A stretch of 64,000 nt of DNA from Escherichia coli (GTDB taxonomy: Bacteria; Pseudomonadota; Gammaproteobacteria; Enterobacterales; Enterobacteriaceae): NCBI RefSeq assembly GCF_044324785.1, contig NZ_CP172127.1; one strand, given 5' to 3'. Position 1 is the first letter of the stretch, and every line of letters begins with the position of its first letter. The notes under the pieces are model-generated. The model was given only the letters and a program-made list of their open reading frames with translations, did not search any database and had not been told where the DNA came from. A program made the position numbers and the translations under genes. Shown here in pieces: positions 14,777 to 17,895 of the stretch.

Positions 14777-16755
<1,979 letters not shown>

Positions 16756-16757
<2 letters not shown>

Positions 16758-17895
16758 GTCAGAGCCCCTCGATCTCAATCAGTTAGCGCAAAAAATTAAA
16801 CAGTGGGGGCTGGAACTGGGCTTTCAGCAGGTAGGTATTACCGATACCGATCTCAGCGCGTCCGAGCCCAAACTGCAAGCATGGCTGGACAAACAATACC
16901 ACGGCGAAATGGACTGGATGGCGCGTCACGGTATGCTGCGTGCTCGTCCTCACGAATTATTGCCCGGTACGCTGCGCGTGATCAGCGTGCGGATGAATTA
17001 CCTTCCTGCTAACGCCGCATTTGCCAGCACGCTGAAAAACCCCAAGCTCGGCTATGTGAGCCGTTATGCGCTGGGCCGTGACTATCACAAACTTCTGCGC
17101 AACCGACTCAAAAAGCTGGGCGAGATGATTCAGCAACATTGTGTTTCGCTGAATTTTAGACCGTTTGTCGATTCTGCGCCTATTCTCGAGCGTCCGTTAG
17201 CTGAAAAAGCAGGACTCGGCTGGACAGGTAAGCACTCACTTATCCTCAATCGCGAGGCTGGTTCGTTCTTCTTTTTAGGCGAATTGCTGGTCGATATTCC
17301 TCTGCCCGTGGATCAACCGGTCGAGGAAGGATGCGGTAAATGCGTGGCCTGTATGACGATTTGCCCGACCGGAGCCATCGTCGAACCATATACCGTCGAT
17401 GCTCGCCGCTGTATCTCTTATCTCACCATCGAACTGGAAGGGGCGATCCCGGAAGAGTTGCGACCGTTAATGGGAAACCGTATTTATGGTTGCGATGACT
17501 GCCAGCTTATCTGCCCGTGGAATCGCTATTCGCAACTCACTACAGAAGACGATTTCAGCCCGCGTAAGCCGCTACACGCTCCGGAACTCATTGAGTTATT
17601 CGCCTGGAGCGAAGAGAAGTTTTTAAAAGTCACGGAAGGTTCGGCGATTCGCCGTATAGGTCACCTGCGTTGGCTGCGTAATATCGCCGTAGCATTAGGC
17701 AATGCCCCCTGGGATGAAACGATTTTGACAGCACTGGAAAGTCGTAAAGGTGAGCACCCACTTCTCGATGAGCACATAGCGTGGGCGATTGCGCAGCAAA
17801 TCGAGAGGCGAAATGCGTGCGTGGTCGAAGTGCAATTACCGAAAAAACAGCGTCTGGTTCGGGTGATTGAAAAAGGGTTACCGCGTGACGCCTGA
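16756..17895 (+). CDS. queG: Epoxyqueuosine reductase QueG
   Basis: Start [12 protein letters not shown]; 4Fe-4S Cys motifs (CGKCVACMTICP, CDDCQLICP); divergent from nnr. Confidence 0.85.

What the first reader, a model, noticed from the sequence alone, without database searches (positions are those of the whole stretch)
16755..16758. Divergent nnr and queG start codons share a CATG tetranucleotide
With starts chosen to give K-12-length products, ATG of queG (16756-16758, plus strand) and ATG of nnr (16757-16755, minus strand) overlap by two bases, so the two 5' coding ends are back to back with no intergenic promoter space. Promoters must lie inside the neighbouring coding sequence.
Basis: inference. 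Interest (0 to 1): 0.25.

Follow-up and report, generated by a model that had tools for sequence, protein, structure and literature searches.

The report
Back-to-back nnr/queG start codons
Two divergent E. coli housekeeping genes, nnr and queG, really do begin on a shared CATG, so each gene's promoter sits inside the other's coding sequence; this layout is already in the K-12 annotation and in published transcript maps, so it is tidy but ordinary.

Summary
Observation confirmed. CATG lies at 16755-16758. The queG ATG (16756, +) gives 379 aa and the nnr ATG (16757, -) gives 515 aa. RefSeq annotates the same 2-nt overlap in K-12 MG1655 and in the closest strain.

Both starts are well supported by comparison. 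In 27 Enterobacterales species the overlap is kept, and in many of them each ATG is the only usable start codon.

- queG has an extended -10 (TGgTATACT, 16716-16724) inside nnr codons 12-15. The published transcript end maps to 16731, giving a 25-nt leader.
- The nnr operon transcript starts near 17144, below a TAAAAT -10 (17158-17153) inside queG codons 133-135. Its leader is 387 nt and lies wholly antisense to queG.
- The resulting 413-nt overlap was reported by Conway 2014 and seen as double-stranded RNA by Lybecker 2014 and Huang 2020.

Dual use leaves marks in the sequence: invariant synonymous sites and fixed rare codons (ATA/TTA in nnr, AGA in queG). The nnr ribosome-binding site GAGGGG is written in queG codons 4-5.

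No ribosome-profiling or N-terminal data were found for either start. Whether the antisense overlap regulates anything is untested. Already known; low interest.

The parts
16755..16758 (.). CATG shared by the two start codons (queG ATG 16756-16758 on +, nnr ATG 16757-16755 on -)
   Evidence: conserved in 27 Enterobacterales loci.
16756..17895 (+). queG coding sequence (tRNA epoxyqueuosine reductase, 379 aa)
   Evidence: NCBIfam TIGR00276 equivalog E=2.9e-153, residues 14-348 matching profile 1-337. Pfam QueG_DUF1730 and Fer4_16. This ATG is the only possible start in 13 species.
15210..16757 (-). nnr (yjeF) coding sequence (bifunctional NAD(P)HX epimerase/dehydratase, 515 aa)
   Evidence: NCBIfam NF007856 equivalog, 1026 bits, residues 1-509 matching profile 1-509/510. 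Pfam YjeF_N and Carb_kinase. ATG conserved in 27 species and the only candidate in at least 10.
16716..16724 (+). queG promoter: extended -10 element TGgTATACT (TG 16716-16717, hexamer 16719-16724), with a poor -35. It lies on the opposite strand of nnr codons Ser12-Ile13-Pro14-His15.
   Evidence: Top hit of my own scan. Present about 40 nt before the queG ATG in all 34 intact Enterobacterales loci, including those where nnr is not adjacent. The nnr codons AGT, ATA/TTA and CCA never vary synonymously.
16731..16755 (+). queG 5' leader (25 nt), from the published transcript end to the ATG; it lies on the opposite strand of nnr codons 1-9.
   Evidence: The Conway overlap ends at 4392114 (U00096.2), which maps to window 16731, 7 nt after the -10 hexamer. 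A p19-captured small RNA pair spans the CATG itself.
16765..16770 (-). nnr Shine-Dalgarno GAGGGG, 7 nt before the nnr ATG; it is the reverse complement of queG codons Pro4-Leu5 (CCC CTC).
   Evidence: Read. queG codons 1-10 have the lowest relative synonymous entropy in the gene (-0.62, permutation P=0.026). CCCCTC or CCTCTC is kept at this position in most of the Enterobacterales loci.
17153..17158 (-). Candidate -10 hexamer TAAAAT of the nnr-operon promoter, inside queG codons Asn133-Phe134-Arg135.
   Evidence: Best minus-strand hit of my scan. GGTCTAAAATTCAGCG is invariant in all 18 Enterobacteriaceae, including the rare Arg codon AGA, which makes up 4.5% of Arg codons in these genes. It sits 9 nt upstream of the published start.
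16758..17144 (-). nnr 5' leader (387 nt), from the published operon promoter position to the nnr ATG; it is wholly antisense to queG codons 1-130.
   Evidence: Conway 'P 4391701' (U00096.2) maps to window 17144, via the Huang 2020 supplement. The coordinate map was checked with a small-RNA sequence and an indel-free comparison with K-12.
16731..17144 (.). Region transcribed on both strands (413-nt 5'-5' overlap). Double-stranded RNA was detected here in vivo.
   Evidence: Conway overlap 4391701-4392114. Lybecker dsRNA MS-212 4391717-4392100. p19 cluster S-361 4391754-4392109, among the top 20 protein-coding clusters.

Best explanation
This is the E. coli queG/nnr junction. The two genes diverge from start codons that share the palindrome CATG, so there is no intergenic DNA and each gene's expression signals are written into the first part of the other gene.

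queG is transcribed from an extended -10 promoter (TGgTATACT, 16716-16724) that lies in nnr codons 12-15. Its transcript starts about 16731 and carries a 25-nt leader with only a weak Shine-Dalgarno sequence.

nnr is the first gene of the long nnr-tsaE-amiB-mutL-miaA-hfq... operon. It is transcribed from a promoter inside queG (-10 TAAAAT at 17158-17153, start about 17144). Its 387-nt leader is antisense to the first third of queG and ends in a GAGGGG Shine-Dalgarno sequence encoded by queG codons 4-5.

The two promoters therefore face each other across 413 bp. The two mRNAs can pair, and RNase III-type products of that duplex have been captured in vivo.

The first 13-16 residues of both proteins lie outside the conserved family cores. 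I infer that they are lineage-specific N-terminal extensions that closed an ancestral short spacer.

Status of each step:
- Shown here: the sequence, the conservation of both starts, and the conserved promoter-like elements with dual-use signatures.
- Taken from papers: the transcript ends and the double-stranded RNA.
- Inferred: the exact -10 assignments, and any regulatory consequence of the overlap.
For: Sequence and annotation. Protein identity.

Start codons:
- Nnr residue 1 aligns 2 nt into queG in 27 species.
- That ATG is the sole candidate start in L013, L016, L018, L020 and L022-L027, among others, while the second ATG is replaced by GTG, TTG, ATT, CTG, GAG or AAG.
- The queG ATG is the sole candidate in 13 species, because of an in-frame stop 3-8 codons upstream or the absence of any upstream start codon.
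- B. subtilis QueG (5d08) aligns from query residue 6.

Transcripts: Huang 2020 Table 2 and its supplement give p19 cluster S-361, Lybecker MS-212 'Divergent', and the Conway overlap 4391701-4392114 with 'P 4391701'. Conway 2014 describes yjeF as heading a 14-gene operon with 8 promoters.

Promoters:
- The top-scoring elements on each strand lie 7 and 9 nt upstream of the published ends.
- The extended -10 stays about 40 nt from the queG ATG even in Pectobacterium, Photorhabdus and Xenorhabdus, where nnr is not adjacent.
- Of 257 conserved degenerate nnr codon columns only 6 use a single codon, and 3 of those are in the first 14 codons.
- The rare codons ATA/TTA and AGA are fixed.

Ancestral spacer: in the Alteromonadales and Vibrionales loci where nnr is adjacent, nnr starts 17-80 nt from queG.
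Against: - The transcript ends come from RNA-seq read depth (Conway) and from the limits of double-stranded RNA, not from a 5'-triphosphate-specific method that I could read. They may be off by several nucleotides. The nnr -10 is 2 nt farther from the reported start than is canonical.
- The tool's standard promoter scan found no site in 16300-17200. Both promoters have poor -35 elements.
- The relative synonymous conservation around the nnr promoter is only marginal over all Enterobacterales (P=0.08). TAAAAT becomes GAAAAT or GGAAAT outside Enterobacteriaceae.
- No direct evidence for either initiation codon was found.
- One metagenome-assembled genome (L019) has a 1-nt indel that moves the nnr start to the second ATG, so the first five residues may be dispensable.
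- The species compared are related, so invariant sites are not independent observations.
Confidence: 0.85

Rival explanations
1. nnr really starts at the second ATG (16742-16740, MKKNPVS..., 510 aa). The genes would then not overlap and a 13-bp spacer would separate the two starts.
For: This ATG exists in E. coli and some relatives. In L019 a 1-nt indel makes it the only start. The conserved NAD(P)HX epimerase domain model begins only at residue 17, so both lengths fit the enzyme. No experimental N-terminus was found.
Against: The codon at that position is GTG, TTG, ATT, CTG, GAG, AAG, CGA or others in most species, whereas the first ATG is present in 27 of 27. GAGGGG sits 7 nt before the first ATG, while only a weak GGA precedes the second. 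The enterobacterial full-length model NF007856 aligns from residue 1. Even if true, 13 bp holds no promoter, so the main conclusion stands.
Confidence: 0.08
2. queG starts upstream, at one of the in-frame GTG codons of the 415-aa open frame (for example 16648 or about 16711). The two coding regions would then overlap by tens of codons.
For: In this window the frame is open for 36 codons upstream of the ATG and contains GTG codons.
Against: Several species have an in-frame stop 3-8 codons upstream: L005, L013, L020, L029, L030 and L034. Others have no upstream start codon: L021-L024, L026 and L027. The mapped transcript begins at about 16731, downstream of those GTGs. The family profile and B. 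subtilis QueG begin within 5-13 residues of the annotated start.
Confidence: 0.02
3. The conserved TGTGGTA(T/A)ACT and the other invariant synonymous sites reflect only protein or codon constraints on Nnr and QueG, not promoters. The published transcript ends would then be processing sites, and the real promoters lie elsewhere in the neighbouring genes.
For: The motif encodes a conserved S-(I/L)-P-H segment of Nnr. The transcript ends are not from 5'-triphosphate-specific data that I could read. Other weak promoter-like sites exist on the minus strand at 16961-16956, 16898-16893 and 17086-17081.
Against: Protein constraint does not explain why Ser, Ile/Leu and Pro each use one codon, two of them rare, in 30 species. 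The motif persists at the same distance from queG where nnr is absent from the neighbourhood. Its hexamer ends exactly 7 nt before the reported end.
Confidence: 0.07

Closest known systems
Overlapping divergent operons of E. coli K-12 (Conway et al. 2014, PMC4161252). Other examples in Huang et al. 2020 (PMC7373196) include asd/yhgN, rhlB/trxA and cpxR/cpxP.
   Same: Divergent genes whose promoters are placed so that the 5' ends of the two transcripts overlap and form double-stranded RNA. The yjeS(queG)/yjeF(nnr) pair is itself listed in these data sets, with a 413-nt overlap. 136 of 388 divergent operons behave this way, with a mean overlap of 168 nt.
   Different: In most such pairs the overlap lies at least partly in a real intergenic region. 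Here the spacer is -2 nt, so both promoters and the nnr ribosome-binding site are entirely inside coding sequence. The overlap is also longer than average.
Excludon (Listeria; cited as ref. 34 in Conway 2014; my description of the concept is from my own knowledge)
   Same: A long 5' leader of one operon runs antisense through the divergent neighbour, which gives scope for mutually exclusive expression.
   Different: An excludon is defined by a demonstrated negative effect on the opposite gene. No such effect has been tested for queG/nnr.
Short gene overlaps in prokaryotes (Lillo & Krakauer 2007, PMC2174442)
   Same: A minimal overlap that involves only the initiation codons.
   Different: Nearly all short overlaps are co-directional stop/start overlaps linked to translational coupling: 12,737 co-directional, 1,890 convergent and only 331 divergent in 58 genomes, of which 57 are shorter than 5 nt. 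A start/start CATG overlap cannot couple translation, because the two codons are on different mRNAs.
Extended -10 (TGn) sigma-70 promoters (established knowledge)
   Same: TG one base upstream of a near-consensus -10 hexamer, combined with a poor -35 (TCGGCG, 3 of 6).
   Different: Function was not tested here. The element is embedded in, and co-evolves with, a protein-coding sequence on the other strand.

Membership tests
QueG, tRNA epoxyqueuosine(34) reductase (TIGR00276) | Full-length match to the equivalog model above its curated cut-off | tested here: met
   509.8 bits against a cut-off of 200; residues 14-348 match profile 1-337/337.
QueG, tRNA epoxyqueuosine(34) reductase (TIGR00276) | DUF1730 domain plus a double 4Fe-4S cluster domain | tested here: met
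   PF08331 at residues 62-140 and PF13484 at 193-256. Homology to the solved B. subtilis and S. thermophilus enzymes.
Nnr/YjeF, bifunctional NAD(P)HX epimerase/dehydratase (NF007856) | Full-length match to the equivalog model, with both the YjeF_N and Carb_kinase domains | tested here: met
   1026 bits against a cut-off of 703; residues 1-509 match profile 1-509/510. PF03853 and PF01256. Homology to T. maritima TM0922.
Head-to-head (divergent) overlapping gene pair | Both annotated start codons are the real ones | tested here: met
   Comparative evidence only: each is conserved and in many species is the only possible start. No ribosome-profiling or N-terminal data were found.
Overlapping divergent transcription units (5'-5' overlap) | Transcript 5' ends of the two units lie beyond each other, and RNA from both strands is detected over the overlap | tested here: met
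   From published data, not my own experiment: Conway overlap of 413 nt, Lybecker dsRNA MS-212 and p19 cluster S-361. The sequence elements agree.
Excludon / antisense-regulated divergent pair | Expression of one unit lowers expression of the other through the overlapping RNA or through transcriptional interference | not testable with these tools
   This needs promoter mutants and an rnc mutant with measurement of mRNA and protein. No paper that tested it was found.
Extended -10 sigma-70 promoter | TGn motif directly upstream of a -10 hexamer with A at position 2 and T at position 6, placed 6-8 nt before the start | tested here: met
   TGgTATACT at 16716-16724; the reported start 16731 is 7 nt after the hexamer.
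Extended -10 sigma-70 promoter | Promoter activity that depends on the TG and the -10 bases | not testable with these tools
   Needs reporter fusions or in vitro transcription.

The most novel reading that the evidence does not exclude
The 413-nt face-to-face transcription unit is a working switch. Transcription from the nnr-operon promoter through the queG promoter, together with RNase III cleavage of the queG/nnr-leader duplex, would tie the level of the queuosine-maturation enzyme QueG inversely to read-in expression of the nnr-tsaE-amiB-mutL-miaA-hfq operon. That would link three tRNA-modification pathways (Q, t6A, i6A). Conservation of the CATG junction across Enterobacterales would then reflect selection for this coupling, not mere compaction.
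Probability: 0.15. Interest if true: 0.4.

Novelty: already known. Interest (0 to 1): 0.15.

Why it matters
The practical value is modest. The finding confirms that the two annotated starts are sound. It also gives a clean, well-conserved example of regulatory signals (two promoters and one ribosome-binding site) encoded inside protein-coding sequence. Those signals leave visible footprints: frozen synonymous sites and fixed rare codons.

Anyone recoding, deleting or tagging the 5' end of queG or nnr should expect to disturb the neighbour. A queG deletion removes the nnr-operon promoter and leader. Changes to nnr codons 1-15 hit the queG promoter and leader. Synonymous 'codon optimisation' of ATA, AGA or CCC-CTC would alter expression of the other gene.

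It does not open a new question, because the overlap and the antisense transcripts are already in the annotation and the literature.

Tried and rejected
- The built-in promoter/terminator scan of 16300-17200 found no promoter at its threshold. A looser scan of my own that credits TGn was needed.
- Rfam at E<=1 on 16200-17400 gave no RNA family.
- Direct TSS tables could not be read. Thomason 2015 is not held. The Conway 2014 supplements are not held. The Cappable-seq and SMRT-Cappable-seq supplements contained no matching coordinates or gene names.
- Start-site evidence was not found. The TRAINSPOTTER N-terminomics supplements and the tetracycline-profiling supplements do not mention the genes. 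The supplements of the retapamulin preprint are not held.
- No E. coli structure exists in the PDB for either protein to show a native N-terminus.
- Alternative starts (nnr ATG 16742 or TTG 16778; queG GTG 16648 or about 16711) were rejected on conservation and on the transcript start.
- A 60-aa antisense ORF (17139-16957, -) begins 5 nt after the nnr transcript start. I rejected it as a gene. Its start codon is ATG only in Escherichia and one Citrobacter locus (L004) and is GTG or CTG in the other Enterobacteriaceae. From my own knowledge, its frame is also the antisense frame that tends to stay open by chance.
- The out-of-frame upstream AUG in the queG leader (16746) is simply the complement of nnr His4 and is lost where that residue is Gln.

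Full report
**What is in the sequence.** The window is E. coli chromosome. A 701-bp query around the site matches 5425 of 5426 complete E. coli genomes, mostly at 95-99% identity, and always lies under genes annotated nnr and queG. The bases at 16755-16758 are C-A-T-G. From ATG 16756 the plus strand reads [18 protein letters not shown]... for 379 codons, ending at 17895. From ATG 16757 the minus strand reads [18 protein letters not shown]... for 515 codons, ending at 15210. RefSeq K-12 MG1655 annotates queG at 4392928..4394067 (-) and nnr at 4394066..4395613 (+), the same 2-nt overlap and the same lengths. PGAP does the same in the closest strain, 1190. Protein identities are unambiguous: QueG matches equivalog TIGR00276 at 510 bits, and Nnr matches equivalog NF007856 at 1026 bits from residue 1, each with the expected Pfam domains.

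**Are these the true start codons?** Both frames are open beyond the annotated ATGs: queG for 36 codons back to GTG 16648, and nnr for 7 codons back to TTG 16778. nnr also has a second ATG five codons downstream. I fetched queG loci from 80 species and examined the junction.

- For nnr, tblastn places Nnr residue 1 exactly 2 nt into queG in 27 Enterobacterales species, from Escherichia through Citrobacter, Enterobacter, Pantoea, Serratia, Yersinia, Rahnella and Budvicia to Edwardsiella. The first ATG is present in all 27. In at least ten of them it is the only ATG, GTG or TTG between the upstream stop and the conserved S-(I/L)-P-H segment. The second ATG is replaced by GTG, TTG, ATT, CTG, GAG, AAG or CGA.
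- For queG, 13 species either have an in-frame stop 3-8 codons upstream of the ATG or have no upstream start codon at all. B. subtilis QueG aligns from E. coli residue 6.

Both starts are thus well supported by comparison. I found no ribosome-profiling or N-terminal proteomic data for either gene, so direct proof is still missing. One metagenome bin (L019) carries a 1-nt indel that shifts the nnr start to the second ATG. This suggests the first five residues are dispensable.

**Where are the promoters?** With a spacer of -2 nt they must lie in coding DNA, and published data show where. Huang et al. 2020 (PMC7373196) list a yjeS/yjeF cluster, S-361 at 4,391,754-4,392,109, among the 20 most abundant p19-captured double-stranded RNA clusters in protein-coding genes. 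They class it as a 5' overlap that was also seen by Lybecker et al. and by Conway et al.. Their supplementary table gives the Lybecker dsRNA MS-212 as 'Divergent', 4391717-4392100. It gives the Conway overlap as 4391701-4392114 (413 nt), with the plus-strand operon running from promoter 4391701 to terminator 4408049.

These are U00096.2 coordinates. A captured small RNA, CAUGACGGACC..., at 4392087 fixes the nnr ATG at 4392088 in that system. The window and K-12 differ only by substitutions in this kilobase. The mapping is therefore window = 16757 + 4392088 - x. The queG transcript then begins at window 16731, giving a 25-nt leader inside nnr codons 1-9. The nnr-operon transcript begins at window 17144, giving a 387-nt leader entirely antisense to queG codons 1-130. 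Conway et al. describe yjeF as the first gene of a 14-gene operon with 8 promoters. They report that 136 of 388 divergent operons have overlapping 5' ends, with a mean overlap of 168 nt.

**Sequence elements that fit these ends.** The tool's strict promoter scan found nothing. A looser scan that credits a TGn extension ranked one site first on each strand.

- On the plus strand the top site is TGgTATACT at 16716-16724, an extended -10 with a poor -35. Its hexamer ends exactly 7 nt before 16731.
- On the minus strand the top site is TAAAAT at 17158-17153, 9 nt before 17144.

The queG element is strikingly conserved. TGGTATACT, TGGTAAACT or a close variant lies about 40 nt before the queG ATG in all 34 intact Enterobacterales loci. 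It is still there in Pectobacterium, Photorhabdus and Xenorhabdus, where nnr is no longer adjacent, and in many Alteromonadales. That independence from nnr argues that the element is queG's promoter and not a by-product of Nnr coding.

**Footprints of dual use.** On the nnr strand the queG -10 region reads AGT-ATA-CCA-CAC (Ser-Ile-Pro-His), or AGT-TTA-CCA in other families. Across 30 species Ser12 and Pro14 each use a single codon. Position 13 uses only ATA or TTA, which make up 8% of Ile codons and 10% of Leu codons in these genes. Of 257 conserved, degenerate codon columns in nnr, only six use one codon throughout, and three of those are among the first 14 codons.

In queG, codons 1-10 have the lowest relative synonymous entropy of the whole gene (-0.62; permutation P=0.026). 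Their complement carries the nnr ribosome-binding site: GAGGGG (16770-16765), 7 nt before the nnr ATG, is the reverse of queG Pro4-Leu5, CCC-CTC.

Around the nnr promoter, GGTCTAAAATTCAGCG is invariant in all 18 Enterobacteriaceae. This includes the rare Arg codon AGA at queG residue 135, a codon that makes up 4.5% of Arg codons here. Outside that family Arg is CGx and the hexamer weakens to GAAAAT or GGAAAT. Over all Enterobacterales the signal is only marginal (P=0.08), so the nnr -10 assignment is the less secure of the two. Within E. coli, the window and K-12 differ at 31 sites per kilobase around the junction but at none between 16661 and 16858.

**How it most likely works.** The genes diverge, but their promoters face each other across 413 bp. 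RNA polymerase leaving the nnr promoter passes over the queG promoter and start. The two RNAs are complementary over the whole queG leader and the first 130 queG codons, and small duplexes of the kind RNase III produces have been recovered from this interval, including one pair that spans the CATG itself. Because the two ATGs are on different mRNAs, the shared CATG cannot couple translation. It is simply the tightest possible packing of two ATG codons on opposite strands.

The first 13 residues of QueG and the first 16 of Nnr lie outside the family-core models. In the Alteromonadales and Vibrionales loci that keep the gene pair, nnr starts 17-80 nt from queG, while the queG -10 already lies in nnr's S-L-P-(H/Q) codons. 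I infer that the enterobacterial overlap arose by N-terminal extension over a short ancestral spacer. Whether the antisense overlap regulates either gene is untested.

**Rarity and novelty.** Divergent overlaps are the rarest kind. Across 58 genomes there are 331, against 12,737 co-directional and 1,890 convergent, and only 57 of the 331 are shorter than 5 nt. The authors attribute this scarcity to the need for upstream regulatory elements (PMC2174442). In the 50 kb of K-12 that corresponds to this window, the seven divergent pairs have gaps of 180, 336, 275, 41, 324, 94 and -2 bp.

So the start/start CATG is uncommon. It is nevertheless in the reference annotation, and the overlapping transcripts are in three published data sets. 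What this analysis adds is only the assignment of conserved promoter and ribosome-binding elements and their codon-level footprints.

Noticed in passing
window 15552-15695 (nnr codons 355-402, minus strand): This is a second patch of frozen synonymous sites inside nnr. AACCTGCTGGCAATC, CGTCACAATCG and ATTGA..GAyCGCTTAC are nearly invariant across Enterobacterales, and 3 of the 6 single-codon columns of the gene fall here (N358, N369, L395). It may mark one of the internal promoters of the nnr-tsaE-amiB... operon, for which Conway lists 8, or another embedded signal.
   Followed up: partly
window 15210-15238: tsaE (14777-15238, minus strand) begins 29 nt inside the 3' end of nnr (which ends at 15210). 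This is a co-directional overlap, and K-12 annotates it the same way (nnr ends 4395613, tsaE starts 4395585).
   Followed up: no
window 17878-17931 (minus strand): By coordinate mapping from K-12, the 17-aa small protein gene yjeV (b4670) lies convergent to queG and overlaps its last 18 nt. PGAP annotates the same small ORF as hypothetical in strain 1190. queG is thus overlapped at both ends.
   Followed up: no
window 16957-17139 (minus strand): A 60-aa ORF antisense to queG starts with ATG only 5 nt after the published nnr transcript start. Its start codon is ATG only in Escherichia and one Citrobacter locus (L004) and is GTG or CTG in the other Enterobacteriaceae, so it is probably a chance open frame.
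   Followed up: partly
L019 about 2480-2502 (MAG, Proteobacteria bacterium CTSoil_132): A 1-nt indel just upstream of queG shifts the nnr frame, so Nnr can only begin at the second ATG (MKKNPAS...). This is either a natural variant that lacks the MTDHT tail or an assembly error.
   Followed up: no
L028 (Brenneria), L031 (Pectobacterium), L033/L042 (Photorhabdus), L036 (Xenorhabdus): In these Enterobacterales the nnr/queG junction has been broken. nnr lies 146 bp or 1.1 kb away, or is not within 2.5 kb. The queG extended -10 still remains about 40 nt before the queG ATG.
   Followed up: partly
window 18165-18463 (minus strand): Three tandem tRNA-Gly(GCC) genes (glyV/X/Y) lie downstream of queG with 36- and 35-nt spacers, as in K-12. 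In the closest strain, 1190, one spacer is 157 nt in the annotation.
   Followed up: no
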